DNA of 64,000 bases from Candidatus Dormiibacterota bacterium (GCA_963709585.1 CAVPXI010000014.1:384001-448000), one strand, 5' to 3'; counted from the stretch's first letter, positions 3,885 through 50,798 are shown. Numbers and translations are program-made. Notes: generated by a model not told the origin, from the sequence alone.

Positions 3885-3888
<4 letters not shown>

Positions 3889-34970: not shown

Positions 34971-34976
34971 GTAGCA

Positions 34977-36189
34977 ATGGAAGCGTTCGCGATGCCGGAT
35001 GCGCGAGAGCGTATAGATGAGGCTGTCGATACGCTCGTCGGCGAGTTCATCGACGCTTTCTCCACACACGCCCTAGGCGCGGACCTGATCGACATCCGGC
35101 GGTCGATCGATCGGCTCGAAGCCGAGTTCATCCGCCGCTTGTATCGCTTCCATTGCGCTCGCAGAGCACAGGCCGACGGCGGCGGGAGCACGGTGTCCTG
35201 GCTGCGACGTTGCGGCATGACGGTCAAGGCGGCCGCCTACCGCGTGCACCTGGCGCGGACGCTCGGCGAGTTGCCGGCCGCGCTCGACAGCGCCCGTGCC
35301 GGTCGCGCCTCCTTCAGCAACGTGACCATGATCGCCCACCTCGCCGAGGATGTCGGCGTGGAGCAGGTGGCGCCGCTCGAGAGCATCCTGGTGGGAGCCG
35401 CGGAGACGCTCGACCCCAGGGCCATGCGCACCCTCACCCAGGTGACCCGGCTGCGGCTCGACCCCGATGGCGTGCTCGCCGATGACAACCGCGCCCACGA
35501 GCGTCGCTGGTTCGAGTGCGAGCAGACGTATGGCGGCGTGTTCGTCCTGCGTGGTGAGCTCGATGCCGAAGGCGGTGCGCTGGTGAAGACCGCGATCGAT
35601 GCGCTCAGTCACGGTATGAGCCGTGGAGAGACGCGGTCGGCGTCCCAGCGCCGTGCCGACGCGCTGGTCGATCTTGCAGCCACTCAGCTGCGCTGCGGTG
35701 ACCACCGCGATGTGCACGGGCAGCGGCCGCATCTCATGGTCACGGTGAGCGCGGAGACGCTGCGCTCTGGAGCTGATGCACAGCCCGCCGAGTTGAGCGG
35801 TGTAGGCCCGATCCATCCGGAAACCGCGCGCCGGATCGCCTGTGACGCGGTGCGGACGTTGGTGACGGTGGCGCCGCCCGCCGATGGTTCGGCGTGGACG
35901 GCCGGGAGCACGGGGGTGACGCCGCTCTCGGTCGGCCGGGCCACGCGCACCATCCCCGCACACATCCGCACCGCGCTGAACCTCCGCGACCAGGGCTGCC
36001 GCTTTCCGGGGTGCGACCGCCCGCCCCGCGTGGACCGATGGCCACCACATCATCCACTGGCCGGACGGCGGCCGAACCGAGGTCGACAACCTGGTCTCCC
36101 TGTGCCGGCCGCACCACCGCGCGGTGCACGAGCAGCGCTGGCGCATCCACATCGCAGACGGAATTGCCGTCGTGGAGCCGCCACCCTGA
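34977..36189 (+). CDS. DUF222 / HNH endonuclease (13E12-like family), frameshift near 36025
   Basis: QRRADAL, RPHLMVTV, TARRIACD, VGRATR, RDQGCRFPGC then shifted WTDGHHIIHW..GGRTEVDNLVSLCRPHH. Confidence 0.88.
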
Positions 36190-36204
36190 GGACAGTTTGA
36201 CTCG

Positions 36205-36327: not shown

Positions 36328-36392
36328 TGTCAGCAAAGTCGCCTCCGGCCGCGTTAGTAAGGGGGTGATCGATCAGCCCGCTGGATGACAGC
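36328..36392 (+). repeat. ECF promoter/sigma 5'-end repeat, copy A
   Basis: TGTCAGCAAAGTCGCCTCCGGCCGCGTTAGTAAGGGGGTGATCGATCAGCCCGCTGGATGAC. Confidence 0.85.
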
Positions 36393-36424
36393 GAAGGAGA
36401 CGTGACGTGGTAGCTGCCCATGCG

Positions 36425-36545
36425 TGTCCTGCGTTCTCACCTGACGGACAGCGGCTCGCCTACGGTGAGGCCCGCGCCTCGGGCAGCGTCGGGGACGATC
36501 GAGGCGTGTGGCCGGTTTCGGATCGAGCCGTGGTGGTCGCGGGAG
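36425..36545 (+). pseudogene. Fragment of TolB-like anti-sigma sensor domain
   Basis: CPAFSPDGQRLAYGEARASGSVGDDRGVWPVSDRAVV nearly identical to part of ORF 47657..49042. Confidence 0.8.
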
Positions 36546-36597
36546 TCCGCGATCGGCGACCTGTGCAGCGGCGGCACACGCGGCTGATGGGGTCCGC

Positions 36598-36718
36598 GCG
36601 AGCTGTCAGGCAGTTGACTGACAACGGATGGCCACGGTGCAACGCTCGCGTCACTGCGAGCGGTGGCATCGCAAATGCCACATCGGGGAGCGAGACCATG
36701 ACAGTCGATAACAGGTCC
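36598..36718 (+). repeat. Lipoprotein leader repeat, copy 1
   Basis: ~120 bp homologous to reverse complement of 43366-43488; contains TGTCAG-N8-CTGACA and two hairpins. Confidence 0.8.
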
Positions 36719-37473
36719 AACAAGATAATTGGACACTTGCGCGCGAACGCGCTCGTGGGCGCGATCGCCGTCGGGCTTCTGGCAAGCGCATGCGCGGCGA
36801 CAACCTCGACACCCACGTCGTCGAAAGGCACCACGGCCGCGGCGACGCCCACTTCCGCACTCGGCGCCGGCAACGCGAAACTCATGGCCGTGAGGCAGAC
36901 AGCGCAGGTCCTAGGGACGGGCACTTATTCCAGCTACACCGTGGCCGTGCCCTCAGGCTGGCTCAATCTGGGTGAATTCGTCGTCAAGTACAACTCGGAA
37001 GAACCCGGGCCGGTGCTGGGCCTCAGCGTGTGGAACGTGGGACTGGTCTACCGCGACCCGTGCCACTGGAAGGGCAACGGGTTCGTCCCCAAGCCAGGCG
37101 TCGATAACCTCGTTGCCGCGCTCGTCGCCCAGAAGCTGCGAAACCCCACCACGCCGACCGACGTGACCCTCGCCGGGTACTCGGGCAAATATCTCGAGCT
37201 GTCGGTTCCCGCTGACATGAAGTCGACTAGATGGACTGACTTCGACGCCTGCGACATCGCCTTCAACGGCATCGATCGCGACTTTGCCGGCTGGCTCGGC
37301 ATCGGCAACGGCGAACGCTATGAGCAGGTCCCGGGCCAGGTCGACCAGCTGTGGGTCCTCAACGTCAATGGGCAACGGCTGCTCGTTGATGCCACGTTCT
37401 CGCCGGACACCTCCCAGCTGACCGGACGCAATTGGATCAAGTCGTCAGCTCACTCCAGATTGGAGGTCACTAA
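36698..37473 (+). CDS. Lipoprotein (domain X, paralogous to the anti-sigma 1 sensor domain); probable frameshift near 37415
   Basis: Lipobox LASAC, Thr-rich linker, YRDPCHW...TPTDVTLAGY...FDACD...GQVDQLWVL. Confidence 0.78.
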
Positions 37474-37486
37474 CCGCGGCGGCACG

Positions 37487-37525
37487 CGCCTCCGGGAGCG
37501 TAAGTAAGGGAGTGATTGGATCAGC
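37487..37525 (+). repeat. ECF promoter repeat, copy B (lacks the TGTCAGC -35 part)
   Basis: CGCCTCCGGGAGCGTAAGTAAGGGAGTGATTGGATCAGC. Confidence 0.75.
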
Positions 37526-38033
37526 GAGCCAGATCACGAAAAGCGAATCCCTGCCTGAGCTGGCGTTCGAGGCTCTGGTGGCCACCGACGCAAAGCGGCT
37601 GTACACACTCGCGCTCTCCATCCTCAGGGACGATGGCGAGGCCGAGGACGCGGTGCAGGAGACGCTGCTCAAGGCATGGCGATCGTGGCCTTCCATCCGG
37701 GACAGCGATCACCTCCCGCGCTGGCTGACCCGCGTCTGCGTGAACCACTGCACCAGCGTGCGCCGGCGCCTCCGCGCGCGAGGCGGGCCGCCACTCGAAC
37801 TCTTCGAGGCGGCCGGATCGTGGGGTGGTCAGAGGAGCCCCGCAGAGATCATCGACGTCGATCGTGCATACCGCCGCCTGTCGATCAGGCAGCGGGCAGC
37901 GATCACCCTCAACTACGGATACGGCTACTCGGTCGAGGAGTTCGCGGATTTGATGGGATGCAGGCCCGGGACCGTGCGCACCCATGTCGCACGCGGGCTG
38001 GCCTCATTGCGAAAGGAGCTTGACGATGCTTGA
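37512..38033 (+). CDS. ECF sigma-70 factor 1
   Basis: EAEDAVQETLLKAWRSW, WLTRVCVN, LSIRQRAAITL, GTVRTHVARG. Confidence 0.92.
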   Translation: MIGSASQITKSESLPELAFEALVATDAKRLYTLALSILRDDGEAEDAVQETLLKAWRSWPSIRDSDHLPRWLTRVCVNHCTSVRRRLRARGGPPLELFEAAGSWGGQRSPAEIIDVDRAYRRLSIRQRAAITLNYGYGYSVEEFADLMGCRPGTVRTHVARGLASLRKELDDA

Positions 38034-38922
38034 CACCGAGCCCGAATTGGACCGAAAGCTGCGGGCTCTGTACAACCACATCAAGACTTAGGATCCGCCG
38101 GCAAGCGTCGCACTTTTTACGGTGCCGACGGCGCGCTCGCGCCATCAGGTGGTCAGTCGTCTCGTCGCCATTGCCGCGGTTGCCGCATTAGCGGCAGCGA
38201 TAGGGCTGTTCGCGATTGAGTTGAACGGGCACCGTGGCACCATCTCGCCAAGGCCGACGACCCAGCCCGCGTCGACGCCGAGCCCTAAGTCCACGCCCGT
38301 TCCCACGTTCAGTACCGGCGTCGTGCCACTCACCGCCGGGACGCATTCGGCGCTGGTGCTGGCCTCGGGCACCTATCCCGAGTACACCGTGGTCGTGCCC
38401 AAGGGCTGGTTCGAGCAGGACGGCCACTTCATGCTCAGCGGAGCGACCAAGCCGCTGCTGGGCTTCAGTATCTGGGACGTCGGACAGGTCTATCGCGACC
38501 CATGCCACTGGCAGGGCCAGGGGTTCGACCCCGGGCCGAGCGTCGCGAACCTCGTTGCCGCGCTCGTCGCGCAGAAGACGCGCAACGCCACCACACCGAC
38601 CGACGTGACCCTCGCCGGGTACACGGGCAAATACCTCGAGTGGTCGGTGCCCGCGGACATGAAGTCGAGCGCGTGGAGCGAGTTCGACGCCTGCGACGTC
38701 GACGCCACAGGCAATCACAACTTCAACAGCTGGCTTGCCTACGGCGTGGGCTACCGCTATGAGGAGGTCCCGGGCCAGGTCGACCAGTTGTGGGTCCTCG
38801 ACGTCAACGGGCAGCGACTGGTCGTTGATGCCACGTACGCACCCGACACCTCCCAAAGCCAGCGGGCGGCATTGGAGCACGTCGTGGAGTCACTCCGGTT
38901 CGGTGCCCGGAAGCCGACGTGA
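38026..38922 (+). CDS. Putative single-TM anti-sigma factor 1 with extracellular domain X; in-frame TAG at 38089-38091
   Basis: ATG overlaps sigma stop; MLDTEPELDRKLRALYNHIKT*DPP..TM; paralog has Gln at the stop position. Confidence 0.75.
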
Positions 38923-39055
38923 TCGAGAGTCACGCGCGCCCTGTCTCCCCAAGTGTCAGCGAGGAGACAGCGGACCCCTGCGACTTCTGCTATTGATTCA
39001 TTGACCGCAGTGCCGGGAGTTCAGCCCAGGCGGACGGCGGTTGGAGGCGACGATC

Positions 39056-39562
39056 ATGAGAAGGGATCTACTGATACTAGCGATGGTCGCAGGGGGATTC
39101 GTGGTTGCCGCGTGCGACCCGGCTCCATCATCCGCCACGCTGACCGCGCAGGTGGCCACGCTGCAGAAGCAGGCGGACATGTACCAGATCGACCAGATCG
39201 AGGTGACCTGGCACAAGGCCGCTTCGATCAAGGACCTCGATCTGATGATGACTCTCTGGGCTGACAACGCCACGTTCCAGATCGGCACGCAGACCGCTTC
39301 AGGGAAGGACCAGATTCGAGCCATGTGGGCCCAATCAAAACCGTTCCAGCCGCAGAACGACTGGGTGGACGAAACGCCAGCCTACAAGGCTGTCATCACC
39401 GTCAGCGGCAATACAGGCACGCTCTACTTCGAGTGCCACTTCGTCGACGTCCCCACCCGTAAGCTGGTCGGCGTTGTGGCCACCCAGCTTGAGGTTGCTC
39501 GCATCGGCGGGCGGTGGCTCATCACCAGCTCGACCGGGTCAACGCCTGTCCTGAGCCCCTGA
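39056..39562 (+). CDS. SnoaL/NTF2-like lipoprotein
   Basis: Lipobox VVAAC; KDLDLMMTLWADNA..F, SGKDQIRA, GRWLI. Confidence 0.75.
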   Translation: MRRDLLILAMVAGGFVVAACDPAPSSATLTAQVATLQKQADMYQIDQIEVTWHKAASIKDLDLMMTLWADNATFQIGTQTASGKDQIRAMWAQSKPFQPQNDWVDETPAYKAVITVSGNTGTLYFECHFVDVPTRKLVGVVATQLEVARIGGRWLITSSTGSTPVLSP

Positions 39563-39563
39563 T

Positions 39564-41213
39564 GTGCCGGCATTCCTGAACCTGGCTGACAACCCGCTGG
39601 TGCGTGCCGTGGCGCGCGTCCCCGCCACGGTCAACCGCAAGCTTCTCGTCGCCTTCGTCGGAATCGTTGTCCTGCTCGTCACGGTCGGCGTTCTCGGTCT
39701 CCGCGTCCTCGGCGACGCGAACGACCGCGTCGAGACACTCGGGAAGCTGCAACAGCGGACAGTGGCATATCAGAACCTCCAGACCGACGTCGTCCTGCTG
39801 GGCAACCTGATGGCGCTGCGGGTGGATAACGATTTCGCCAGCATCTTCTCGGGGGTGAACACGTCGCCGGCGGTCAGCCTGGCAGTTGACCAAATCATCC
39901 AGACCGCGAGCATCACGATCGGCCCAGCGTCAGACATCAGCCAACTCGGCTTCGTGCCCCCTCCTGAAGAGAGGAACCTCCTCGGCCAGATCGAGCTGGA
40001 TTTCCGTCAATTCTCCAGCGTGATCACCCGGATCATCGCCTACGACAAAGATGGACAGGCAAGCCAGGCTCAGCTGCTGCAGAACACCCAGGGCAACGAC
40101 CGCGCCACCGACTTGCTGCGTCGGGCGAACCAGCTCGTGCACACCACGAACGTGGAAACCGCTGGTCTGATCGCCCTCAACACAAGTGCCTACGCGGACT
40201 CGCAACACCTCTTCATCGGCGTCGCGGCAGGGAGCGTCGTCGTGGCCCTGCTCCTGGGCTTCGTCATCTCCCGGTCCCTCATCGGGCCGATCCGGAAAAT
40301 GGACACCCGGCTGGCGGCCATCGCTTCGGGCGATTTCTCGGGCCACGTCGACGTCCCCAACCGCGACGAGCTCGGTGCCCTCGCCACGAACCTCAACCGG
40401 ATGAACGACCAGCTGGGCCGCCTCTATGGGGAGCTCGAGACTGCCAGCCGGCACAAGTCGGAATTCCTCGCCAACATGTCGCACGAGCTGCGCACCCCGC
40501 TCAACGCCGTGATCGGTTTCTCGGAGGTGTTGCAGGACCGCCTGTTCGGCGATCTCAACGACAAGCAGGCGGAGTACGTCGCCGATATCCACGCCTCGGG
40601 ACGCCATCTGCTTGCGCTGATCAACGACATCCTGGACCTCTCCAAGATCGAGGCGGGAAGGATGGATCTGCAAATCACGCCCTTCGCACTCTCCGATGTC
40701 GTAGAGAACTCGGTGGCACTGTCGCGCGAACGCGCCACGCGTGAGGGCGTTGCGCTGGGGCTCGAGGTCGACCCGGGCATCGGCGTCATCGAGGCGGACG
40801 AACGGATGCTCAAGCAGGTGCTCTTCAACCTGCTCTCCAACGCCTTGAAGTTCACAGCCAGGGGTGGTCATGTCGGCGTCAGCGCTCATGCTGTCGGCGA
40901 CGACGTGGTGGTCAGCGTGCGCGATGACGGTGTCGGTATCGCGCCGGCGGACCAAGCCCGCATTTTCGAGGAGTTCCAGCAGGTCGGAACGTCCCACCTC
41001 CAGGAGGGGACAGGTCTCGGCCTCGCCATCTCGCGACGCTTCGTCGAGCTCCACGGCGGCAGCCTCCGTGTGGAGAGCGAACCGAGCCACGGCAGCACTT
41101 TCACCTTCACGATCCCGCGCACCCAGGGCACCGCGATCCCACCTGACAGCGAAGCGCCACCTCCCGCGGGAGTCGCCGCCACGGCAACCCACACCACGGC
41201 GCCGGTCGCATGA
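39564..41213 (+). CDS. Membrane HAMP histidine kinase
   Basis: Two TMs, HAMP (NRDELG), FLANMSHELRTPL, NLLSNALKFT, DDGVG, GTGLGL. Confidence 0.93.
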   Translation: MPAFLNLADNPLVRAVARVPATVNRKLLVAFVGIVVLLVTVGVLGLRVLGDANDRVETLGKLQQRTVAYQNLQTDVVLLGNLMALRVDNDFASIFSGVNTSPAVSLAVDQIIQTASITIGPASDISQLGFVPPPEERNLLGQIELDFRQFSSVITRIIAYDKDGQASQAQLLQNTQGNDRATDLLRRANQLVHTTNVETAGLIALNTSAYADSQHLFIGVAAGSVVVALLLGFVISRSLIGPIRKMDTRLAAIASGDFSGHVDVPNRDELGALATNLNRMNDQLGRLYGELETASRHKSEFLANMSHELRTPLNAVIGFSEVLQDRLFGDLNDKQAEYVADIHASGRHLLALINDILDLSKIEAGRMDLQITPFALSDVVENSVALSRERATREGVALGLEVDPGIGVIEADERMLKQVLFNLLSNALKFTARGGHVGVSAHAVGDDVVVSVRDDGVGIAPADQARIFEEFQQVGTSHLQEGTGLGLAISRRFVELHGGSLRVESEPSHGSTFTFTIPRTQGTAIPPDSEAPPPAGVAATATHTTAPVA

Positions 41214-41608
41214 CCACGCTTGCCCAGGGTCAGCTGGTGCTCATCGTCGAGGACAACGAGAAGAATCTCAAGCTCGCTCGCGATCTGTTGCAGTACCACG
41301 GCTTTCGCACCATCGAGGCGTCGGACGCCGAGACCGGGCTTCGGATGGCATCGAACTCCAAGCCCGACATCATCCTCATGGACATCGAACTGCCCGGCAT
41401 CGACGGGGTGACGGCACTCGAACGCCTCCGGGCTGATCCGGCCATCGCCGGCATCGTTGTGGTCGCCTTCACCGCGTCGGTCATGCCGGTCGACCGGGAC
41501 CGGTTCTCTCGGGCCGGCTTCGCCGGGGTCATCGTGAAGCCCATCGATGTGGCCATTTTTCCCCACCAGGTGCTCGCGTATTGCAACGGCTCGGCGCGAG
41601 ACGGCTGA
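41210..41608 (+). CDS. Single-domain response regulator (DivK-like)
   Basis: IVEDN, ILMDIELPG, FTA, KP. Confidence 0.9.
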   Translation: MTTLAQGQLVLIVEDNEKNLKLARDLLQYHGFRTIEASDAETGLRMASNSKPDIILMDIELPGIDGVTALERLRADPAIAGIVVVAFTASVMPVDRDRFSRAGFAGVIVKPIDVAIFPHQVLAYCNGSARDG

Positions 41609-42756
41609 TGGATCGGGCTGCGCGCTTATTGGTCATCGATGACACGCCGCAGAACGGGCGGCTCCTCGAGGCGATGCTCACACCACATGGCTACACGGTC
41701 GCTCTGGCTCTTTCCGGCGAAGAGGGACTCGCGAAGCTGCACTCCGAGCCACCCGACCTTGTGCTCCTCGACATCCTCATGCCCGACATGACCGGGTACG
41801 ACGTCTGCCGCCGGATTCGCGAGGAGCCCGCGACGCAACTTCTGCCGGTCGTCATGCTGACGTCGAGTGGCGACCAGGACAAGGTGAACGCCATTGAGGC
41901 GGGAGCGGACGATTTCATCAGTCGACCGTTCAATCCGCAGGAGTTGCTCAGCCGGGTGCGCTCGCTGCTGCGGATCAAGGAGTACCACGACACGATCCAG
42001 AAGCAGACCGCTGAGCTTGCCGAATGGAACCGGACGCTGGAGGAACGTGTTCAGAGTCAAGTAGCGCAACTCGAAGGTCTGGATCGGCTGCGCCGCTATT
42101 TCTCGGCAGCGGTAGCCGACGTGATCACGTCCGGGGGCGCGCAGCTGCTCGAGCCGCACCGGCGCGAGGTCACGATTCTGTTCTGTGATCTCAGAGGCTT
42201 CACCGCATTCGCCGCGAATGCGGAGCCCGAAGAGGTGATAGGCGCGCTCAGTCAGTTCTACGAGGCCGTCGGCGAGCTGATCCTCCGCTATGAGGCAACC
42301 CTCGAGCAGTTCGCCGGCGACTCGATCATGGCCATCTTCAACGACCCGATGCCGTGCGTCGAGCACACGGCCGCGGCGGTGCGAATGGCGGTCGAAATTC
42401 GTGAGCGTATGCAGGCGGTGACCGACGCCTGGCGACGCAACGGCTTCGACCTCGACGCGGGCATCGGCATCGCCGAGGGGTACGCGACCCTCGGCCGCGT
42501 CGGCTTCGAAGGACGGTTCGACTATCGCGCAACCGGGAGCGTCGTCAACCTCGCATCGCGTCTGTGCTCCCAAGCGCTTGGCGGCCAGATCCTCCTCTCG
42601 CCGCGCGCCTATGCGACCGTGAGCGACCTCGTGAGCATCGAACCGGTCGGCCCACTCCAACTGAAAGGGTTCCACGACCCCGTGCAGGCCTACAACGTCA
42701 TCGGGCTGCGGGAGCAGACACCGTCGGCGTCCACACGGCAAGGGAGCAAGGAGTAG
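41608..42756 (+). CDS. Receiver + class III adenylate/guanylate cyclase
   Basis: IDD, LLDILMP; LFCDLRGFT, FAGD, GIGI, VNLASRL, LKG. Confidence 0.92.
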   Translation: MDRAARLLVIDDTPQNGRLLEAMLTPHGYTVALALSGEEGLAKLHSEPPDLVLLDILMPDMTGYDVCRRIREEPATQLLPVVMLTSSGDQDKVNAIEAGADDFISRPFNPQELLSRVRSLLRIKEYHDTIQKQTAELAEWNRTLEERVQSQVAQLEGLDRLRRYFSAAVADVITSGGAQLLEPHRREVTILFCDLRGFTAFAANAEPEEVIGALSQFYEAVGELILRYEATLEQFAGDSIMAIFNDPMPCVEHTAAAVRMAVEIRERMQAVTDAWRRNGFDLDAGIGIAEGYATLGRVGFEGRFDYRATGSVVNLASRLCSQALGGQILLSPRAYATVSDLVSIEPVGPLQLKGFHDPVQAYNVIGLREQTPSASTRQGSKE

Positions 42757-42783
42757 ACCTGCCCGGTCAGGATGACGGCCCCG

Positions 42784-43386
42784 TCAGGGCAGCCGCCCGA
42801 CCACAAAGTTCGCTCCCGCCTCGAGTTGGACGTCGCTGCAGGGCGGGCGCATCAGCACGCACACGACGTTGAAGACGTTCGACCCGTCGATCACGTAAAT
42901 ACCGGTATCTTCTGGGTCGGGCGAGTGGGCGATAACGGCCCCACCATGGAAGGTCGGCAACTCGGCGATCGTGAACGACGGAGGAATCAATGCCTTGCTG
43001 GCGTTGTAATACGCCCTCGCGGCAGCCGGATCCACGCCCTGCCACAGCGCGACGCTCACCCACGTGTCCTCGCCCACGTAGCCAAAGAGGCATTCGCGCT
43101 CTGGGCCCACCACCTTGGTGACGCCCGGGCCAGTGTTATAACCGGAAACCATGGCCACCTCCTCGATCGTCATCAGGGTGCATGGGTCGATGTTGCCGCG
43201 CGTCAACTGCCCACCGCCCCCTCCCGAAGGAGTCCGGGTGACCACACGTTGCGGTGTCGCCGTGGGGGCATTGCTGGGCGTTGGTGCCGAGGTCGACGTT
43301 GCGCATCCGGCGAGAGCTAGGGCGGCCAGCCCGGCCATCACGAACCTTGGACCGCGCACCATGTAGGACCTGTTACCGGCTGCCAT
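42784..43386 (-). CDS. Lipoprotein (DUF3558-like)
   Basis: Lipobox LAGC, DPCTLMTIEEV, C.F motif. Confidence 0.7.
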   Translation of the reverse strand: MAAGNRSYMVRGPRFVMAGLAALALAGCATSTSAPTPSNAPTATPQRVVTRTPSGGGGGQLTRGNIDPCTLMTIEEVAMVSGYNTGPGVTKVVGPERECLFGYVGEDTWVSVALWQGVDPAAARAYYNASKALIPPSFTIAELPTFHGGAVIAHSPDPEDTGIYVIDGSNVFNVVCVLMRPPCSDVQLEAGANFVVGRLP

Positions 43387-43488
43387 GGTTTCGATCTCCC
43401 TGATGTGGCGTTTGAATGCCAGTGCTCTTAGCACCGCGAGCGTGGCACCGTGGTCATCCGGTGTCAGTCACTTACCCGACAACTCGCA
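43366..43488 (-). repeat. Lipoprotein leader repeat, copy 2
   Basis: Homologous to 36598-36718 including first codons (MAAGNRS vs MTVDNRS). Confidence 0.8.
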
Positions 43489-43595
43489 GCCACTACGGCT
43501 TCGAACGCCAGCTTGGGAATGATTCACTGGTCGTCATCCGGCGGGCTAACCCGATCACTCCCTTACTAACGCTTTCGGAGGCGATTTTGCTGACA
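43485..43595 (-). repeat. ECF promoter + first ~25 sigma codons (truncated), copy C
   Basis: TGTCAGCAAAATCGCCTCCGAAAGCGTTAGTAAGGGAGTGATCGGG...ATGACGACCAGTGAATCA...AGCTGGCGTTCGAAGCC. Confidence 0.88.
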
Positions 43596-43600
43596 GGCGA

Positions 43601-43903
43601 TTGTTTCTCCCTGACCCTCACGGATCGCCCACTGGCAAGACGCTCCTGCTTATAGGCGCTGCCGGCGGCGTTGGCTCATTCACCACTCCACTCGCCAACG
43701 CAGGTGCCCAGGTGATCGCTATTGCCCGCGATGACGCGGCCGACCGGCTACGTGCCTACGGCGCTGAGGAAGTGCTCGACTACGCGGAGGCCGTCGTCAG
43801 CGAACAGATCGTGGCAACGCCGATCACACGGATCGGCCTCGGTGACGTTGCCAAACTGAACGCCAACCCCAACACTGAGGGGAAGACCGTCATAGTCCCC
43901 TGA
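43601..43903 (+). pseudogene. Fragment of NADPH:quinone oxidoreductase/MDR family
   Basis: LLIGAAGGVGSF, YGAEEVLDY, GKTVI; lacks N-terminal domain. Confidence 0.65.
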
Positions 43904-43963
43904 TATCTCAGACCCCTGATACGTCCAACGTCGGGCGCGCTACGGGGGTACTGTAGACACGCA

Positions 43964-44083
43964 ATGGGTTTCGTTGGCGGCCATCTCCCCGAGTTACTGG
44001 TCGTTATCGTCGTCTTGGGAGGCGTCGCATGGGTAGGGTTGACTCTCATACGTCGGGTGCATGATTCCTGGCACCGGAAGTGA
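43964..44083 (+). CDS. 39-aa single-TM small protein
   Basis: MGFVGGHLPELLVVIVVLGGVAWVGLTLIRRVHDSWHRK; below the ORF-track cutoff. Confidence 0.5.
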   Translation: MGFVGGHLPELLVVIVVLGGVAWVGLTLIRRVHDSWHRK

Positions 44084-44311
44084 CGCGAGCGACTGCCACC
44101 CAGCGTTAGCAGCCCTATAGTGAATCTGGGCGTGCCCGGCCTCACGATCGTGGTCACTGATCGAGCCCTGAAGTTCATCGGTGCGGTTGGCACAACCTGT
44201 TGGTCGACGAGGAGCTCATCACGGGCTTCGTCGTCCCCGGTCGGCCGACGGAGCTTCACGCGCGTGCCACGGCTGAACGATCAGGCCCAGCCCCGACAAT
44301 GGAGGTCGAAC

Positions 44312-44635
44312 ATGACAGCAACTCTGAAGGTGACGCATAAAGCACTCGGAGCCGAGGTCCGACGTGGCACGTACGACATCGTGGTTGACGGTCACCTTGC
44401 CGGATCGGTCGAAATGAACGACACGGTCGAGATACCAATCGAACCTGGACGTCACACCCTGCAAGTTCGCAGCGGCCGAAACTCCAGCCGAGCCCAGACC
44501 TTCGACGCCGCCGAGAGCCAGACCGTCGCCTTCCGATGCACCGGAAAGAGCTTTCTGCCGATCTTCCTCGCGTCCTTCTTCGTCCCCAGCCTGGCGCTCC
44601 AGCTCCGCCGTGAAGCCGATGATCGGTCTCTCTGA
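44312..44635 (+). CDS. Hypothetical beta-rich protein
   Basis: GGAGG RBS; YDIVVDG, IEPGRHTLQVRSG. Confidence 0.65.
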   Translation: MTATLKVTHKALGAEVRRGTYDIVVDGHLAGSVEMNDTVEIPIEPGRHTLQVRSGRNSSRAQTFDAAESQTVAFRCTGKSFLPIFLASFFVPSLALQLRREADDRSL

Positions 44636-44986
44636 CATCGTCCAGAGGAGGATGAAGCGAAACTGGCGCGATCCCGTCCATCGAAATACCAAGACCGTGC
44701 CTCGGTCCACGTTTCATGGTCGGGGCATTCATTCCTTAGTCCGACCCTGTCGAGAGACGTCGAGTTAGACCGGCGCGTCGGCCAGAGTAGAAGCTTCTAC
44801 CGCGGCTGCCGAACTCTCCTGGAGCTTGAGTGCGGGCTGGAACGCCGGGACGGGACCAACGGCCCTGTCGCGTTGCGAGCGCGGGTGTCATGCTCCATGC
44901 ATGCGAGGTAGCCGCCGTTGTCGTGCGCGTATGACCGGGTCAGACACGGTGAACGCATACGCGCCGCGGCAGATCAGGGGGAGCCG

Positions 44987-45989
44987 ATGAAAGCGGTCGT
45001 CTACGACACCTATGGCTCACCTGATGTCCTGGAACTCAGAGAGATCGACGAACCGCTGGCCAGGGACGATCAGGTGCTGGTGCGGGTCATCGCAACTTCG
45101 CTGAATGCCGCTGACTGGCACTTGATGCGCGGCCTGCCGTACCTAGCGCGCCTGATTTTTGGGCTGCGCAAACCGAGCAAGGTCACCGTTCTCGGAGGCG
45201 ATATCGCGGGCCAGGTTGAAGCAGTTGGCAAGAACGTGACGCGGTTCATTCCAGGTGATGAGGTCTTCGGGCGGACGCGGGCCGCCATACGCCCCGATCG
45301 TCGCGATGCCGTCGCCACAGGTGGCTGTGCCGAGTTCGCATGCGTCGTCGAGGACGTACTGGTGCGGAAGCCGGCCAACCTGACTTTCGAACAGGCGGCG
45401 CCGTACCCTTGGCGGCGTTGACGGCGCTGCAGGCTCTGCGCGACAAGGGCGACGTTCAGCCAGGGCAGAAGGTCTTGATCAACGGGGCGTCAGGAGGGGT
45501 GGGCACATTCGCCGTGCAGATCGCGAAGGCGTTCGGCGGTGACGTGACCGGCGTATGCGGCAGCACGAACGGGGACATGGTGCGATCCATCGGCGCCGAT
45601 CAGGTCATCGACTACACCCAGGAGGACTTCACCAAGGGTGGGCAGCGTTATGACCTCATCCTCGACATCGCGGATCGTTCGCTGACCGACCTGCGACGTG
45701 CGCTCACAGCTCGGGGGACTTCGTCACGATCGGAGGATCGGCCGGTCGTTGGATCAATGGCCTTGGCCGCGAAAACAAGGAGCGCGTGGTATCCCCATTC
45801 GTGAGTAAGCGGCTACAACCGTTCCTCACGAAGTGGAACCGACAGGACCTGGAGGTTTTGAAGGAACTCATCGAAGGCGCCAAGGTCACGCCGGTCGTCG
45901 ACCGGGCCTACACCCTGAGTGAGAGCCCGGAGGCGATGCGTTACCTGGAACAAGGTCATGCTCGAGGAAAGATCGTCATCAAGGTGTGA
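44987..45989 (+). CDS. NAD(P)-dependent alcohol dehydrogenase/quinone oxidoreductase family (two frameshifts)
   Basis: [40 protein letters not shown] in three frames. Confidence 0.8.
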
Positions 45990-46110
45990 GGCGCGGGCTG
46001 GCGACGGCGAACGGGTGCGACGGGTCGAGCCGTGCTCCGATGATCGAGACGCGAGGATCACCGCGGTCGCGATCCTTCGCCAAAGTCGAGTTGGTCAGGC
46101 CGGACATCGG

Positions 46111-46503
46111 TCATCCGTCTAAGGCCACTACGACGAAGCAGGCCGTGAGCACCAGCCCGATCGGTGCCATGAGGAACCGCTCCCATCGACTGTGGGAAGC
46201 GCTGTTAGCGAGTGTGCTCAGGCCGACGATTACTGCGAGCACCCAGATTCCGACGCGCACGGGCGCGGATTCCCTCGCGACCCCGAGGCGTCCTGCGCGA
46301 GCAAGGACGACATAGAACGCCGCGACGAAAACGAAGGCAGATATCGCACTTGCGCCGCGCAATCTTGCGGGTAGTACCCCGTTCGCTCCACCGAACGCGG
46401 CGTGGCCCAGGGGGAAGCCGAGGGCCAAAAGGATCTGGAAGATCGCCATCCCGACGACCCCTGCCGCTGCAACGAGAGCCACCCAATTCGCCATGGATCT
46501 CAT
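46111..46503 (-). CDS. Four-TM membrane protein
   Basis: FQILLALGFPLGHAAFGG, LANSASHSRWER. Confidence 0.7.
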   Translation of the reverse strand: MRSMANWVALVAAAGVVGMAIFQILLALGFPLGHAAFGGANGVLPARLRGASAISAFVFVAAFYVVLARAGRLGVARESAPVRVGIWVLAVIVGLSTLANSASHSRWERFLMAPIGLVLTACFVVVALDG

Positions 46504-46815
46504 TTCCAACCTCTGCTGTCGCTCGGCAAGGGGCGCCGCCTCATTGTCCATCCCAGGACGAGTTCCATGGGTGGCGGTCGTCGCGCGCCGCGCCTTCTTA
46601 CTTCGGGGACCTTGGCAAGGACACACATTTGGTCGTTGGCTGGCAGGCGAGTGCGGCCCAGCGACTGGATCACCTGCACCGGGTGCATCCCGAGATGCGG
46701 AAATACGCGCCCCGTTGGTCCGGCTGAGGCCAATCCATCGCCTGTGGAGGTGTTTGACGCATTTGCGCGGATGTAACTGTTGTGACGTGGTCCCGTTTGA
46801 ATGGTGGAGACAGAG

Positions 46816-47628
46816 ATGAAACGCACAACCACCATAGGCACGGCGATCGCCGCTCTTGGCCTCGCAGCATGTGGATCGACAGTCGCTCCGAGGGTAACCC
46901 CGACCCCCGCAACGACGGTCACCTCAACCCCTGCGCCGATCGCAACCCCTGCGCCGACCGCAACGCTCGTGCCGACTCCATCATCCACTCCCGTGCCGCC
47001 GTCGCCGAATTATTGGTGGCCAGCCGAGGGGAATGCCAACGACTCCGTGGGCATGGATAACGGAACACTCGTCGGAGTCACGTTCGGTCCGGGTGTGTAT
47101 GGAACCGACCAGGCGTTCAGTTTTGGCGGAGCGGCGGATCAAGTCGTATTCAACACGGATGGCGGCAACCCTGGTACCGATGCCTTCACGTTCGCGTTCG
47201 CTCTCAAGACGACCGCGGCAACCCAAGAACAGGCCATTTGGGAGAAGCGAGCGCAGTGCGACTCCGACGGGACCAGCTTTTGGGGGTTCCGAATGCAGCC
47301 CAACGGGGTGGTCAATTTCGAGGCTCAGAATACCGTCGGCCAAGACTACGTGGACCTGGGTTCAACGGCGGTGGTCAACGACGGAGCGTGGCACTGGGTG
47401 GCCGTGACCAGACAGACCACTACGGCATCGCTGTATGTGGACGGCCAACTTCAAGCGACCACCACGACTGCAACAACCGCTGATATCTCGAAAAGAACGC
47501 CGATGCGGGCCGGTGTGAGCACTTGTGATGGGGTCGACGGGACCAGTGCGCTCGTGGGCCAACTGGACGAACTGATGATTTTCCGAGTGGCCCTCACCCG
47601 GTCGCAGATCCAGACCCTCGGGAGCTAA
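46816..47628 (+). CDS. Lipoprotein with LamG-like jelly-roll domain
   Basis: Lipobox LAAC, PT-rich linker, EGNAND, DGAWHWVAVT, LYVDG, GQLDELMIF. Confidence 0.82.
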   Translation: MKRTTTIGTAIAALGLAACGSTVAPRVTPTPATTVTSTPAPIATPAPTATLVPTPSSTPVPPSPNYWWPAEGNANDSVGMDNGTLVGVTFGPGVYGTDQAFSFGGAADQVVFNTDGGNPGTDAFTFAFALKTTAATQEQAIWEKRAQCDSDGTSFWGFRMQPNGVVNFEAQNTVGQDYVDLGSTAVVNDGAWHWVAVTRQTTTASLYVDGQLQATTTTATTADISKRTPMRAGVSTCDGVDGTSALVGQLDELMIFRVALTRSQIQTLGS

Positions 47629-47656
47629 ACGTCGCAGCATCTTTTTGGACCTCCCA

Positions 47657-49358
47657 TCATCGTTTTGGACCTGTCACCGGTTGCCATGTCACCTCGGGCC
47701 ACGACCACTCGAGGTTGAGTTCCGAGTTGAACTGCCCGTCCGCGTACGCGATTGGCGATGGCCCAGGCGCCACCGCGACCGAAACCACCCCATCGATCGA
47801 GCTGAGGAGCAGGCGTTTGCCATCGGGTGACCACAGGAGCCCGGACACCAAGAAGTTGGGCGGGACAGGCACCTCAACGACGTTCCGGCCGCGGGTGTCC
47901 ATGGTGACGACGTGTTGAGAGCTAGCGGCGACGTATGCCACTCGGTTGCCGTCCGGGGAAACCGTGGAAACGGTGCTGTAACCACCGGACGCGAGTTGTG
48001 TGTCGTGGCTGCCGTCGGCGTCTATGCGGTTCACGACCAGTGAATCACTGACCGGGTCCGTGCTGGTGTAAATGATGCCGTCGTCGGCCGTCCAACCGAT
48101 GGATCCCGAGTAGGACCCGGGAACAACTCCCTGTACCGCGATCACGGTGGGGGTGCTGCCGTCGATCGGGACGACGCGGATGTGGCCCGGCTCCGCCACC
48201 GCGATTCGCTTACCGTCGCGAGACCATGCGAATCCGTTCTGGCCCCACGGCGTGGCCAGGACCTGGAACAGCGTCGTCTTCCCTGACGTGGTGTCGGCGA
48301 CCCACAGATCAGCCCCCACGCGGTAGGCGACATGCCTGCCGTCGGGCGACCACTGCGGGCATGCGATCTCCCCCGGAGCCGTCGGTAGGGTGAGACGCAT
48401 GAGCGGCTGGGATGGGTCGCTCAGTGCGACGATCACCACGGCTCGATCCGAAACGGGCCATACCCCTCGACCTGACGTGACGGCGCCTGAGGCGCGGGCC
48501 TCTCCGTAGGCGAGCCGCTGTCCGTCAGGTGAGAACGCCGGGCAGTCCTGGGCGATGCCGTCGCCGTCGGATCCGATAACCCGCCGCGGAGAGGCGCCTG
48601 GACTTAAGAGGTAGATGTCGCCGTTCTCACCCCCACCGAAGGTCCAAGGGTTCGCGGAGGCTGCGATCCAACCCTGGGAAGCGACGGACGGTGGCACGGG
48701 CGGAGGACTTTCCGCGATGAAGATCTCCCACGTCGTCGACGGCGAGGTCGAGATCTCGATGGTCACTGGCTTCCCGAGGTCGGCCGCCTTCAGCACCTGA
48801 TTCGGGTATGAGGGCAACGACGTGGCAACGATGGCGGCATCGGCGGCTGAGGACGAGCAGCCCGGGCGCACCTCGGGGCCTAGGACGCCCGTGGCGGTGA
48901 CAACCAACGAGCTGTCGCCGACGCACGCGTACTGAATGTAGAGCTCCCCTTCGGGGATGATCGTCACGCTTGCGGTGCCCATGCCCTGCGTCTCCGGCAC
49001 CAGGACGGGCGCCAATACGGGCAACTCGGTTTGAATGGGCAAGTCTGAGCGAGAGGGCGAACCGGGGGTGTGGCGACGGCAGGGGGCTCGGCGACCACAC
49101 GGGGCGCAGCGGCGACACCGAGTGCTTGGCCGGCGCCGGGGTGCTCACGCGGTGTGCACTCAACTCAGTGGCGAACACGACGATTCCCGCCGCGATCACG
49201 GCGATTCCGACAACGCCGGCGAGACGACCCAGCGCCTTTCGACCTGAACGCGACGCGCGCGTCGTGATCCGCCCGAGGCTTGGCTGCGGATCCTGAGTTG
49301 CGATGCGGTCGTACATGGCCTGCAGCTGTCGGTCCAACTCAGGCTCAATGTCAAGCAT
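47657..49358 (-). CDS. Putative single-TM anti-sigma factor 2 with TolB-like beta-propeller (frameshift near 49060)
   Basis: MLDIEPELDRQLQAMYDRIATQDP + TM; repeated SPDG/SRDG blades. Confidence 0.78.
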
Positions 49359-49872
49359 CGCCAAGCTCCTTTCGCAATGAAGCCAACCCGCGCGCGACAT
49401 GCGTGCGAACAGTGCCCGGCTTGCATCCCATGAAATCGGCGGACTCCTCGACCGAGTAGCCGTACCTGTAGTTGAGGGTGATCGCTGCCCGCTGCCTTAT
49501 CGACAAAGTGCGATATGCGTGGTCGATGTCGATGGTCTCCGCGGGACTGGTCTGACCCCGAGACGCACCGGCCGACTCGAACAGTTCGAGTGGCGGCCAG
49601 CCTCGAGCGCGGAGGTGCCGGCGTATGCTGGTGCACTGGTTGACGCACACGCGGGTCAGCCAGCGCGCCAGGTGATCGCTCTCCGATATGGACGGCCAGG
49701 ACCGCCAGGCCTTGAGCAACGTCTCCTGCACCGCGTCCTCTGCTTCGCCCTCATCCCTGAGGATGGAGAGCGCGAGTGTGTACAGCCTCCTCGCATCGGC
49801 GGCGACCAGGGCCTCGAACGCCAGCTCTGGCCGGGATTCACTCGTTGTCATCCGGCCGGCTGATCCAATCAC
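49351..49872 (-). CDS. ECF sigma-70 factor 2 (close paralog of sigma 1)
   Basis: LYTLALSILRDEGEAEDAVQETLLKAWRSW...GTVRTHVARGLASLRKEL. Confidence 0.92.
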   Translation of the reverse strand: MIGSAGRMTTSESRPELAFEALVAADARRLYTLALSILRDEGEAEDAVQETLLKAWRSWPSISESDHLARWLTRVCVNQCTSIRRHLRARGWPPLELFESAGASRGQTSPAETIDIDHAYRTLSIRQRAAITLNYRYGYSVEESADFMGCKPGTVRTHVARGLASLRKELGDA

Positions 49873-49909
49873 CCCCTTAATAACGCTTTCCGAGGCGATT
49901 TTGCTGACA
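49849..49909 (-). repeat. ECF promoter repeat, copy D (native position before sigma 2)
   Basis: TGTCAGCAAAATCGCCTCGGAAAGCGTTATTAAGGGGGTGATTGGATCAGCC. Confidence 0.88.
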
Positions 49910-50089
49910 TGCGAGGTGCGATGTTGGGCCGCAAAGGCGTGCGCCGCGAGGCACGTTGTCGACTGGCACGAGGTGATGCTCTGAGGAGGCCGGAAGCGAC
50001 CGATCTCAGCAACCTCGTCCGTCGTTACTACGACCCCCAAGACGCCCCGCCTCGCGACCCGCCCAGCTCCATCGGCCAGAGCGCGGTTG

Positions 50090-50152
50090 TGTCAGCAAAA
50101 TCGCCTCCGGAAGCGTTAGTAAGGGGGTGATGGGACCAGCCCGCCGGATGAC
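50090..50152 (+). repeat. ECF promoter + first sigma codons, copy E
   Basis: TGTCAGCAAAATCGCCTCCGGAAGCGTTAGTAAGGGGGTGATGGGACCAGCCCGCCGGATGAC. Confidence 0.88.
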
Positions 50153-50798
50153 GGCGACCAACGACAGAGACACCATGGCAGCCAACACCGCAACGGACCG
50201 GCGCCGCGGTCGTACGCGCTGGGCGTTCTGGCTCGTCGCTGCGACCGCGAGCGTCACTCTGGGGGCATGCGCGGCATCGAGCCCGACCATCGCGCGCTCA
50301 GCGTCGGCAGCGCCAACCACCGCCCCCTCGTCGTTGGCACCGCCGGCCAACGGCACCTCCCCATTGCCACCGCCGACCGACCCATCGTTGGTGCCGGGTG
50401 CGCCGGCACCCCATTTGGCGGTGGAACTCTCGGTCGGAACGCCCTACACGTACTGGGCCCCTTCGGGAGACGGGATGCAGGTCACAGTGCTTGCGCTGAT
50501 CGACCCCGCTCAAGGGACGAGCGGGGCACACCCCGCCGACGGATATCGCTTCGTCGCCGCCAAGCTCCAGATCAACGGGTGGGCTAGCTCGATTTTGGTC
50601 GATCCCAATCGCGACGCAGCCCTCATCCTCGCCGACAACACTGCCGCAAACGCCCAGGTCAACGACGTCGTCAAAGGCTGCGCCAACTTCCATCGCGGCA
50701 GCTATGCGATCGACGCCGGGGACGTGATCGACGGATGCCTCGTTTTCCAGGTGTCCAACGACGACCGTCTTCACGGCATGGAATGGGGCATCGGGTAG
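50127..50798 (+). CDS. Lipoprotein of unknown function (start 50127 or 50176)
   Basis: Lipobox LGAC, Pro-rich linker, GYRFVA, GCLVFQV. Confidence 0.7.
   Translation: MMGPARRMTATNDRDTMAANTATDRRRGRTRWAFWLVAATASVTLGACAASSPTIARSASAAPTTAPSSLAPPANGTSPLPPPTDPSLVPGAPAPHLAVELSVGTPYTYWAPSGDGMQVTVLALIDPAQGTSGAHPADGYRFVAAKLQINGWASSILVDPNRDAALILADNTAANAQVNDVVKGCANFHRGSYAIDAGDVIDGCLVFQVSNDDRLHGMEWGIG

What the first reader, a model, noticed from the sequence alone, without database searches (positions are those of the whole stretch)
36698..49872. Paralogous sigma/anti-sigma pairs with swapped extracellular sensor domains
Seen: two near-identical ECF sigmas (37512+, 49872-) each overlap a gene starting MLD(T/I)EPELDR.L.A.Y..I.T.DP plus a TM helix. 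After the TM the proteins are unrelated. Anti-sigma 1 carries domain X, which also occurs as a free lipoprotein immediately upstream (36698-37473, long identical DNA stretches). Anti-sigma 2 carries a TolB-like beta-propeller. Inference: a constant signalling core with interchangeable sensing modules, drawn from or donated to neighbouring lipoproteins. The two pairs are inverted, so recombination in the shared ~600 bp would flip the ~11 kb between them and exchange sensors, shufflon-like. No recombinase is visible in the window.
Basis: partly seen in the sequence, partly recalled or inferred. Interest (0 to 1): 0.75.

Follow-up and report, generated by a model that had tools for sequence, protein, structure and literature searches.

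The report
Paralogous ECF sigma/anti-sigma pairs, modular sensors
Two diverged copies of a sigma factor and its membrane-bound inhibitor, from an uncultured soil phylum, carry different outer sensor domains because of old domain swaps with neighbouring lipoprotein genes, not because of a DNA-flipping switch.

Summary
The two sigma/anti-sigma pairs are real, but they are not near-identical. The sigmas share 83% of residues and 80% of bases, with dS 0.46.

Anti-sigma 1 has an in-frame TAG at codon 22. Anti-sigma 2 is frameshifted at about 49044. The upstream lipoprotein gene is frameshifted at about 37415. glmS, deoC and FTR1 are also frameshifted in this window, so the indels may be assembly errors.

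The family belongs to Candidatus Dormibacterota. Its roughly 30-residue N-terminal helix resembles NepR weakly and is predicted to bind the sigma (ipSAE 0.81, best control 0.00).

Homologues of this N-terminus carry four kinds of outer domain:
- repeats of an unnamed ~110-residue domain Y
- Y plus a PD40 propeller
- Y plus DUF642
- domain X, a lipoprotein domain with a weak LpqN/PsbP-like fold

On the N-terminus tree, domain X was acquired once. On the domain X tree, fused and free copies intermix (AU p = 5.5e-5), which points to continued exchange with lipoprotein paralogues.

A conserved promoter, copied together with the first sigma codons, sits in front of three lipoprotein genes.

Nothing supports a shufflon. 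The longest identical run is 34 nt, no conversion tracts were seen, and no recombinase domain was found. Reads could not be checked.

The parts
36328..36394 (+). Promoter copy P1 (TGTCAGCAAA-N14-GCGTTAG-N7-GTG) followed by a remnant of the first sigma codons. The remnant stops after 7 codons.
36416..36700 (+). Remnant of a PD40-type anti-sigma ectodomain. It is 82-85% identical in DNA to 48417-48553 and gives a 96-aa tblastn match at 51%.
36598..36697 (+). Leader of about 100 nt, conserved with the leader of the lipoprotein gene at 43387 (79.5% over 127 nt, including the first codons). No Rfam match.
36698..37507 (+). Free domain X lipoprotein gene (signal peptide ending LLASAC). One base is missing at 37415/37416. 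The stop in the paralogue's frame is at 37473; the actual ORF runs to 37507.
37474..37511 (+). Degenerate promoter copy in front of sigma 1. The -35 part is lost and the -10-like part reads CGTAAG.
37512..38033 (+). ECF sigma 1 (173 aa, GTG start).
38026..38922 (+). Anti-sigma 1: NepR-like N-terminal helix, transmembrane helix, Pro/Thr linker, domain X. In-frame TAG at 38089-38091 (codon 22). The next start is the GTG at 38122.
43486..43600 (-). Promoter copy P3 plus about 25 codons of a decayed sigma 5' end.
42784..43387 (-). Lipoprotein gene (weak DUF3558 match) behind P3. Its leader and signal peptide are homologous to those of the domain X lipoprotein.
47657..49358 (-). Anti-sigma 2: N-terminal helix and transmembrane helix (49358-49160), linker, domain Y (49042-48689), PD40 propeller. 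The reading frame breaks at about 49044.
49351..49872 (-). ECF sigma 2 (173 aa, GTG start).
49868..49909 (-). Promoter copy P4 in front of sigma 2.
50090..50131 (+). Promoter copy P5, back to back with P4.
50127..50798 (+). Lipoprotein gene (weak DUF4352 match). Its ORF begins with sigma-derived codons (MMGPARRMT..).

Best explanation
The region holds two old paralogous operons of an ECF sigma / single-pass anti-sigma family. All nine related genome loci found come from uncultured bacteria, seven of them labelled Candidatus Dormibacterota.

Proposed mechanism:
- The anti-sigma holds its sigma at the membrane through a very short N-terminal helix of about 30 residues. This helix resembles NepR (class II anti-sigma domain). 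This step rests on prediction.
- A signal at the outer domain releases the sigma, probably by regulated proteolysis. This is inferred from other ECF systems, not shown here.
- The freed sigma then reads a conserved promoter, TGTC(A/C)GCAAA-N14-(G)CGTT(A/G)G. The promoter lies in front of the sigma's own gene. In this window it also lies in front of three lipoprotein genes, because the promoter was copied together with the first sigma codons.

The outer domains differ because of ancient domain replacement:
- The ancestral form carries one to three copies of domain Y.
- One lineage added PD40 or DUF642 after Y.
- One lineage replaced everything after the transmembrane helix with domain X. X was taken from a lipoprotein gene that commonly lies beside these operons.
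- Fused and free X copies have since exchanged sequence, most simply by gene conversion between neighbouring paralogues.

This is evolutionary modularity, not a programmed inversion. The three breaks in this assembly (one TAG, two 1-nt indels) are at least partly assembly errors.
For: Sigma identity:
- Sigma70_r2 and r4_2 hits. TIGR02937 scores 68.9 bits against a cut-off of 42.9.

Anti-sigma identity:
- The start overlaps the sigma stop in all nine related loci.
- Complex prediction: ipSAE 0.81, 0.79 and 0.81, best of 3 controls 0.00. This mark was reached by 116 of 157 solved complexes and 2 of 215 mismatched pairs. The runs agree in at least 52% of their contacts, and the partner's pLDDT is at least 65. 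Residues 4-29 touch sigma 27-52 and 116-170.
- NepR is the Pfam family matched by most members, 6 of 15, best E 0.0036, always below the cut-off.
- The PDB NepR chains 5uxx_B and 4qic_B match at E 0.04-0.06. The sigma profile's best PDB match is 5uxx_A, the partner chain in the same entry.

Modular ectodomains:
- Of 31 hits to the N-terminus profile, 16 carry X, 3 carry DUF642 and 12 carry PD40.
- Of 81 representatives in 1.84 billion proteins, 33 carry Y (1-3 copies), 2 DUF642 and 1 PD40. One carries a Sortilin/BNR domain.
- P0127 (PD40 type) and P0125 (DUF642 type) are 78% identical through residue 219 and unrelated after it.

Domain X history:
- On the N-terminus tree, 17 of 17 X-type rows form one clade (100/97*).
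- On the domain X tree, the fused/free label needs 8 changes, at least 6 of them forced by well-supported branches. Holding the fused copies together is rejected (delta lnL 170, p-AU 5.5e-5).

Promoter:
- There are 4 copies in the window against 0 expected by chance.
- The 10-mer occurs exactly once in each of 9 related loci, always 37 nt before the sigma start.

Age of the duplication:
- dS 0.456 and dN 0.089 between the sigmas.

Assembly quality:
- glmS, deoC, FTR1 and a Zn-ADH gene are also split between frames.
- TAG ends 8 of 44 Pfam-supported ORFs, so it is an ordinary stop here.
Against: - No experiment shows binding, release or promoter use.
- The complex score may come from likeness to the solved EcfG-NepR complex.
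- The NepR similarity is below every curated threshold.
- The fused group in the AU test was named after a first tree had been seen.
- The 'free' label depends on gene calls made on short contigs. One row (P0017) proved to be a truncated fused form. Eight rows were dropped.
- Linking proteins to one contig rests only on equal contig lengths.
- The sigma tree could link only 4 of 13 close sigmas to an anti-sigma type and left the X-linked sigmas unresolved.
- The TAG is a substitution, which is not the typical long-read error. All three sensor-domain genes (both anti-sigmas and the domain X lipoprotein) are broken, which could mean real decay.
Confidence: 0.68

Rival explanations
1. Shufflon-like switch. 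Recombination between the inverted sigma/anti-sigma 5' regions flips about 11 kb and exchanges the sensors.
For: An inverted repeat of 761 nt with 10,889 nt between the arms.
Against: - The arms are 80% identical, with exact runs of at most 34 nt.
- dS is 0.456, and no 60-nt window is above 92% identity, so there is no recent homogenisation.
- No integrase, invertase or transposase family was found in the ORFs scanned.
- Both units are complete operons, so an inversion would not switch any gene on or off.
- The domain X pairing is a single clade on the N-terminus tree.
- Reads were not available.
Confidence: 0.03
2. Real decay. In this genome the two anti-sigma genes and the lipoprotein gene are true pseudogenes. 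The sigmas are then unregulated or themselves on the way to loss.
For: - There are three lesions in three genes within 13 kb.
- One lesion is a substitution (CAG to TAG).
- The neighbourhood holds undoubted remnants: a PD40 fragment, two sigma 5' stubs and ADH fragments.
Against: - The essential gene glmS, together with deoC and FTR1, is also frameshifted in this window. That fits an assembly prone to indel errors.
- Intact homologues of both anti-sigmas exist: P0002 is 97% identical to anti-sigma 1 over its full length, and P0129 is 97% identical over the 72-residue N-terminus and 96% over the ectodomain of anti-sigma 2.
- Sigma dN/dS is about 0.2.
Confidence: 0.2
3. The downstream genes are not anti-sigma factors. 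They are merely co-transcribed membrane or secreted proteins that share a leader sequence.
For: No Pfam family reaches its cut-off on the N-terminus.
Against: - The overlap with the sigma stop is conserved in nine loci.
- The complex prediction scores 0.81 against 0.00 for the best control.
- NepR similarity is weak but consistent.
- The N-terminus is conserved while the ectodomain varies.
Confidence: 0.05

Closest known systems
SigI/RsgI pairs of Clostridium thermocellum
   Same: Several paralogous sigma/anti-sigma pairs in one genome. Each anti-sigma has a constant N-terminal sigma-binding part, one transmembrane helix, a conserved juxtamembrane domain and a variable C-terminal sensor module. 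What I saw: abstracts of PMC12203970, PMC6056542, PMC10328401 and PMC6852018 in the listings. That the sensor modules resemble domains of the regulated enzymes is recalled, not read.
   Different: SigI is not an ECF sigma, and the RsgI N-terminal domain is a different family. Here the sigma is an ECF type and the binding part is a ~30-residue NepR-like helix. No autoproteolysis of the juxtamembrane domain Y is shown here.
Class II anti-sigma domains (NepR, CnrY)
   Same: A very short helical sigma-binding element. CnrY is said to be membrane-anchored (recalled). Passages of PMC6101532 read define class I (three-helix bundle plus a fourth helix), class II (two-helix clamp) and class III. The profile here matches NepR weakly.
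   Different: NepR is soluble and controlled by PhyR partner switching. Here the helix is fused to a transmembrane helix and to large ectodomains. All sequence matches are below the curated thresholds.
Tt-RpoE1 / Tt-TolB of Thermoanaerobacter tengcongensis
   Same: An ECF sigma whose downstream gene, with a TolB-like C-terminal part, acts as the anti-sigma through its N-terminal domain. The promoter is autoregulated with a -10 CGTC-type motif (abstract of PMC3397946).
   Different: No sequence relationship to it was tested here. The promoter there is tGTTAC-N16-CGTC; here it is TGTCAGCAAA-N14-GCGTTAG.
Shufflons and invertible DNA switches
   Same: The repeats are inverted, and a constant 5' part is joined to alternative 3' parts.
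   Different: There is no recombinase and no short near-identical crossover sites. The arms are 20% diverged, and both units are complete operons. The defining features listed for shufflons are recalled, not read.

Membership tests
ECF (group 4) sigma-70 factors | Only regions 2 and 4 are present, length about 170-200 aa | tested here: met
   Sigma70_r2 and Sigma70_r4_2 both score above their cut-offs in both proteins. TIGR02937 scores 68.9 and 69.9 bits against a cut-off of 42.9.
TIGR02983 SigE family (actinobacterial) | Score above the curated cut-off of 141.55 bits | tested here: not met
   This is the best NCBIfam hit, but it scores only 114.6 and 113.7 bits.
Class II anti-sigma domain (NepR/CnrY) | Sequence match to the NepR family | tested here: inconclusive
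   PF18557 is matched by 6 of 15 members, best E 0.0036. The window's copy scores 15.2 bits against a cut-off of 25.7. The PDB NepR chains match at E 0.041 and 0.058.
Class II anti-sigma domain (NepR/CnrY) | A short helical element that contacts both sigma region 2 and region 4 | tested here: inconclusive
   Predicted only. ipSAE is 0.81 against 0.00 for the best control. Anti-sigma residues 4-29 contact sigma 27-52 and 116-170. The score may reflect likeness to entry 5uxx.
Class I anti-sigma domain (RsiW/RseA/ZAS type) | Three-helix bundle plus a fourth helix, about 80-90 cytoplasmic residues | tested here: not met
   Only about 43 residues precede the transmembrane helix. No class I family appears among the Pfam hits.
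Shufflon / invertible DNA switch | A site-specific recombinase encoded at the locus | tested here: not met
   No integrase, invertase or transposase family in the window ORFs scanned. ORFs under 70 aa were not scanned.
Shufflon / invertible DNA switch | Near-identical inverted crossover sites, with both orientations present in a population | tested here: not met
   The arms are 80% identical with a longest exact run of 34 nt. The orientations in reads are not testable with these tools.
SigI/RsgI | RsgI N-terminal domain paired with a SigI-type sigma | tested here: not met
   No such Pfam family was hit by the anti-sigma N-termini or by the sigmas.
PD40 / TolB-like beta-propeller | PD40 repeats | tested here: met
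   PF07676 scores 52.8 bits against a cut-off of 20.9. The protein is not TolB itself: TIGR02800 scores 42 bits against a cut-off of 343.
Mog1/PsbP-like fold (LpqN, DcrB, PsbP, Apa), considered for domain X | Similarity of fold | tested here: inconclusive
   The model has pLDDT 93.7 and pTM 0.90. The best PDB matches are Apa 5zx9 (E 5e-4, TM 0.38/0.45), PsbP, LpqN and DcrB. The nearest named Atlas clusters are LpqN/LpqT, DcrB and PsbP at only 0.85-0.87. No Pfam or NCBIfam family was hit.
Bacterial lipoprotein | Signal peptide ending in a lipobox with Cys | not tested
   The sequence shows ..GLLASAC.. (36698 gene)..LALAGC.. (43387 gene) and ..VTLGAC.. (50127 gene). No signal-peptide predictor was run.

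The most novel reading that the evidence does not exclude
The sensor domain may be recycled from the regulon's own output.
- Anti-sigma X would have arisen by a deletion that joined the sigma-binding helix and transmembrane helix of a PD40-type anti-sigma to the mature part of the adjacent lipoprotein. That lipoprotein is itself driven by the same promoter.
- Fused and free copies would then keep exchanging sequence, so the sensor stays a mirror of the secreted product. The free lipoprotein could compete with the sensor for the same ligand, giving built-in feedback.
- The reverse path also seems to occur. Seven 'free' ORFs (P0036, P0085, P0105, P0106, P0112, P0115, P0117) still begin with, or contain, ML(D/E)IEP, three of them (P0085, P0112, P0115) behind a sigma 3' remnant.
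- If the TAG is real, the window's own anti-sigma 1 would be caught at the first step of that path.
Probability: 0.2. Interest if true: 0.65.

Novelty: new member of a known kind. Interest (0 to 1): 0.38.

Why it matters
This is a first sketch of a signalling family in Candidatus Dormibacterota, a phylum known here only from metagenome-assembled genomes. A full-text search for 'Dormibacterota' together with 'sigma factor' found one paper, and it is unrelated.

The sketch comprises an unusually small sigma-binding element, a defined promoter, a candidate local regulon of lipoproteins, and two ectodomains with no family name (X and Y).

The disagreement between the N-terminus tree and the domain X tree is a clean natural example of how sensor modules move between anti-sigma factors and secreted proteins. 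That may be useful for designing orthogonal sigma/anti-sigma switches.

The general principle, a constant sigma-binding part joined to variable sensors, is already known from the RsgI factors.

Tried and rejected
- **Alternative genetic code for the TAG.** Rejected, because TAG ends 8 of 44 Pfam-supported ORFs.
- **Known RNA in the conserved lipoprotein leader.** No Rfam match at E <= 1 in 34-52 kb.
- **Structure of domain Y.** The model was poor (pLDDT 64.1, pTM 0.60), so no fold search was made.
- **Sigma tree labelled by anti-sigma type.** Only 4 of 13 close sigmas could be linked, and only by equal contig length. The PD40-linked sigmas grouped (91/95); the X-linked sigmas stayed unresolved.
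- **Related genomes for synteny and orientation.** The genome collection held only distant relatives (62-71% sigma identity: L001-L008 and L017). Each locus had one sigma within 10 kb, so the orientation question stayed open.
- **First spaced promoter pattern.** It had the wrong spacing and found nothing.
- **Casas-Pastor ECF classification paper.** Term searches for TolB, WD40, class II and DUF642 found nothing, so no ECF group number was assigned.

Full report
**What is in the sequence**

The window is about 66% G+C. Two ECF sigma genes lie at 37512-38033 (+) and 49872-49351 (-). Both have Sigma70_r2 and r4_2 domains. They are 83% identical in protein. They lie inside an inverted repeat, 37487-38247 against 49137-49897, of 761 nt at 80% identity with 10,889 nt between the arms.

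Each sigma stop overlaps, in the sequence ATGCTTGA, the start of a gene that begins MLD(T/I)EPELDR and runs into a hydrophobic helix. Beyond that helix the two products are unrelated.
- One carries a domain with no Pfam or NCBIfam family. I call it X.
- The other carries a ~110-residue domain that I call Y, followed by PD40 repeats.

Domain X also occurs in a lipoprotein gene starting at 36698. That copy is 76% identical in DNA over 592 nt, and 64.7% identical in protein to the X domain of P0002.

- Anti-sigma 1 has an in-frame TAG at 38089-38091, where locus 2 has CAG. The 16 fused domain-X homologues in the tree have Q (15) or E (1) at this position. One of them, P0002, is 97% identical and intact.
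- Anti-sigma 2 changes frame at about 49044, compared with the intact 566-aa homologue P0129.
- The lipoprotein gene lacks one base at 37415/37416 relative to its paralogue. Its orthologues P0085 and P0115 end like the other frame.

TAG is an ordinary stop in this genome: it ends 8 of 44 Pfam-supported ORFs. Elsewhere in the window FTR1, glmS, deoC and a Zn-ADH gene are also split between frames. A broken glmS is hard to reconcile with a living cell, so the assembly is probably prone to indel errors. The TAG is a substitution and remains open.

**Whose system it is**

Relatives come from metagenome-assembled genomes, mostly labelled Candidatus Dormibacterota. In the genome collection the nearest loci have only 62-71% sigma identity (L001-L008 and L017). 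In all nine, the downstream gene starts at the sigma stop with M(L/I/V)(D/E)(I/L/V)(D/E) and continues into a transmembrane helix. In most of them, one or two Y domains follow.

**Is the N-terminus an anti-sigma domain?**

Only about 43 residues precede the membrane helix, which is too few for a class I domain. The classes are defined in passages of PMC6101532.

The evidence points, weakly, to a NepR-like class II element:
- The Pfam family NepR is the one matched by most members, 6 of 15, but always below its cut-off.
- The PDB NepR chains 5uxx_B and 4qic_B match at E 0.04-0.06.
- The sigma profile's best PDB match is 5uxx_A, the partner chain in the same entry.

A complex prediction of sigma 2 with residues 1-45 gave ipSAE 0.81, 0.79 and 0.81, against a best control of 0.00. 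That mark was reached by 116 of 157 solved complexes and by 2 of 215 mismatched pairs. The runs agree in at least 52% of their contacts, and the partner's pLDDT is at least 65. Residues 4-29 lie against sigma 27-52 and 116-170. Because a similar complex has been solved, this pass may reflect likeness rather than independent evidence of binding.

**Are the sensors interchangeable?**

A profile of the 72-residue N-terminus found 31 longer proteins:
- 16 with X (about 295-301 aa)
- 3 with DUF642 (about 409 aa)
- 12 with PD40 (563-577 aa)

A search of 1.84 billion representative proteins found 81 family members:
- 33 carry one to three Y domains
- 2 carry DUF642
- 1 carries Y plus PD40
- 1 carries a Sortilin/BNR-type domain, seen among the 47 longer members that I scanned with Pfam

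P0127 (PD40 type) and P0125 (DUF642 type) are 78% identical through the end of Y (residue 219) and unrelated afterwards.

On a tree of the N-termini (40 rows, 68 columns):
- the X type is one clade (17 of 17 rows, support 100/97*)
- it is nested among the PD40 and DUF642 types
- the Y-only forms make up the outgroup
- DUF642 and PD40 are not separated cleanly

So the pairing with X was made once, while the C-terminal module behind Y has changed more than once.

**Exchange with lipoproteins**

Free X proteins are far more numerous and more widespread than fused ones. Of the 120 best hits, 16 are fused.

On a domain X tree, the fused/free label needs 8 changes in 121 rows. In a careful tree of 46 rows it again needs 8, at least 6 of them forced by well-supported branches. 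A tree that holds the fused copies together is rejected (delta lnL 170, p-AU 5.5e-5).

Caveats on that test:
- I named the fused group after seeing the first tree.
- I dropped eight rows whose N-terminus was truncated or garbled.

The N-terminal module says 'one origin' while the X domain says 'many'. The simplest reading is sequence exchange between fused and free copies. Several observations fit exchange between neighbours:
- P0019 (fused) and P0106 (free) are sisters (99*), and both list a longest contig of 9,216 nt.
- In the window the two X copies are direct repeats 1.44 kb apart. They belong to different major clades.
- The window keeps a PD40 remnant directly upstream of its X lipoprotein gene (36416-36700).

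These points fit an ancestral order of sigma, then anti-sigma(PD40), then lipoprotein X. A single deletion in that arrangement could have produced anti-sigma X. This last step is inference.

**Promoter and local regulon**

The motif TGTCAGCAAA(A/G)TCGCCTC..(G)CGTTAGTAAGGGGGTGAT occurs four times in the window against 0 expected by chance: 36328+, 43595-, 49909- and 50090+.

The 10-mer TGTC(A/C)GCAAA occurs exactly once in each of the nine related loci, always 37 nt before the sigma's GTG. A variable spacer and (G)(C/T)GTT(A/G/T)G follow it. The motif also shows through as a translated ORF extension in 10 of 13 close sigma orthologues.

If the -10 element is placed as in the T. tengcongensis promoter (-13 CGTC -10, abstract of PMC3397946), transcription would start at the GTG itself, giving a leaderless mRNA. 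That is an inference and was not tested.

Every extra copy in the window carries the first sigma codons:
- One runs in frame into a DUF4352-like lipoprotein gene (50127).
- One is followed by about 25 decayed sigma codons and then a DUF3558-like lipoprotein gene (43387-42784).
- One is followed by the PD40 remnant and then the X lipoprotein gene.

Sigma 1's own promoter has lost its -35 part. Sigma 1 is therefore probably transcribed from the copy in front of the lipoprotein gene. The lipoprotein genes at 36698 and 43387 share a ~100-nt leader (79.5% over 127 nt), and the signal peptides of these two and of the 50127 gene look alike by eye.

**What domain X is**

The AlphaFold model is confident (pLDDT 93.7, pTM 0.90). 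Its best PDB matches are weak: M. tuberculosis Apa (E 5e-4, TM 0.38/0.45), PsbP, LpqN and DcrB. The nearest named clusters in the ESM Atlas are LpqN/LpqT, DcrB and PsbP, at only 0.85-0.87. A distant Mog1/PsbP-like fold is therefore a lead, not a finding.

**The inversion idea**

- The arms are 80% identical, and the longest exact runs are 34 and 30 nt.
- dS between the sigmas is 0.456 with dN 0.089. No 60-nt window is above 92% identity.
- No recombinase family was found in the ORFs I scanned.
- Both units are complete operons, so a crossover inside the sigma genes would give two chimeric sigmas, each still followed by a whole anti-sigma. Nothing would be switched.

The orientation in a population therefore stays untested.

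**Comparison with known systems and verdict**

The arrangement works like the SigI/RsgI pairs of cellulolytic clostridia, which have several paralogous pairs, each with a constant N-terminus and variable sensors (abstracts seen). It also resembles the ECF/TolB-like pair of T. tengcongensis (abstract). It is not a member of either family.

It is best filed as an undescribed, lineage-specific family within the known kind 'ECF sigma with a single-pass anti-sigma'. It has a NepR-like minimal binding element and shows clear traces of module exchange with its own regulon's lipoproteins.

The modularity inference is supported on an evolutionary scale. The shufflon inference is not supported.

Noticed in passing
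window 574-4116 (-): A UvrD/PcrA-like helicase ORF contains an Intein_splicing match (residues 379-698) between its helicase domains.
   Followed up: no
window 18581-20514 (-), 25787-27827 (+), 10763-11655 (-), 44912-45801 (+): glmS, deoC, FTR1 and a Zn-dependent alcohol dehydrogenase gene are each split between two reading frames. This suggests indel errors in the assembly, or real decay in the case of the ADH gene.
   Followed up: partly
window 32956-34209 (+): An MbnB/TglH/ChrH-family RiPP-modifying enzyme (E 2e-74) sits between unannotated ORFs at 32621-33379 and 34215-34727. It may mark a peptide natural-product cluster.
   Followed up: no
window 34932-36197 (+); L017 3-497 (-): A DUF222 protein lies directly upstream of promoter copy P1. 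An 83% identical homologue lies at the edge of L017, next to a DUF3558-like lipoprotein gene and about 7 kb from that genome's sigma.
   Followed up: no
window 36598-36722 (+) and 43362-43487 (-): Two different lipoprotein genes share a leader of about 100 nt (79.5% identity). The leader is read in different frames in different relatives, so it is probably a DNA or RNA element. It has no Rfam match.
   Followed up: partly
window 49847-50152: Promoter copies P4 and P5 lie back to back, forming an imperfect 306-nt palindrome (68% identity).
   Followed up: no
window 39564-42756 (+): A histidine kinase, a response regulator, and a response regulator fused to an adenylate/guanylate cyclase lie between the two sigma loci. 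SnoaL-like lipoprotein genes sit at 39041 and 51012.
   Followed up: no
window 43601-46800: This stretch has lower G+C and no convincing intact gene. It holds only ADH fragments and ORFs with no family match.
   Followed up: no
L006 10461-11400; P0012, P0058: Relatives also show frame breaks in the same genes. The L006 anti-sigma changes frame, P0012 has a shifted tail, and P0058 has a garbled internal stretch.
   Followed up: no
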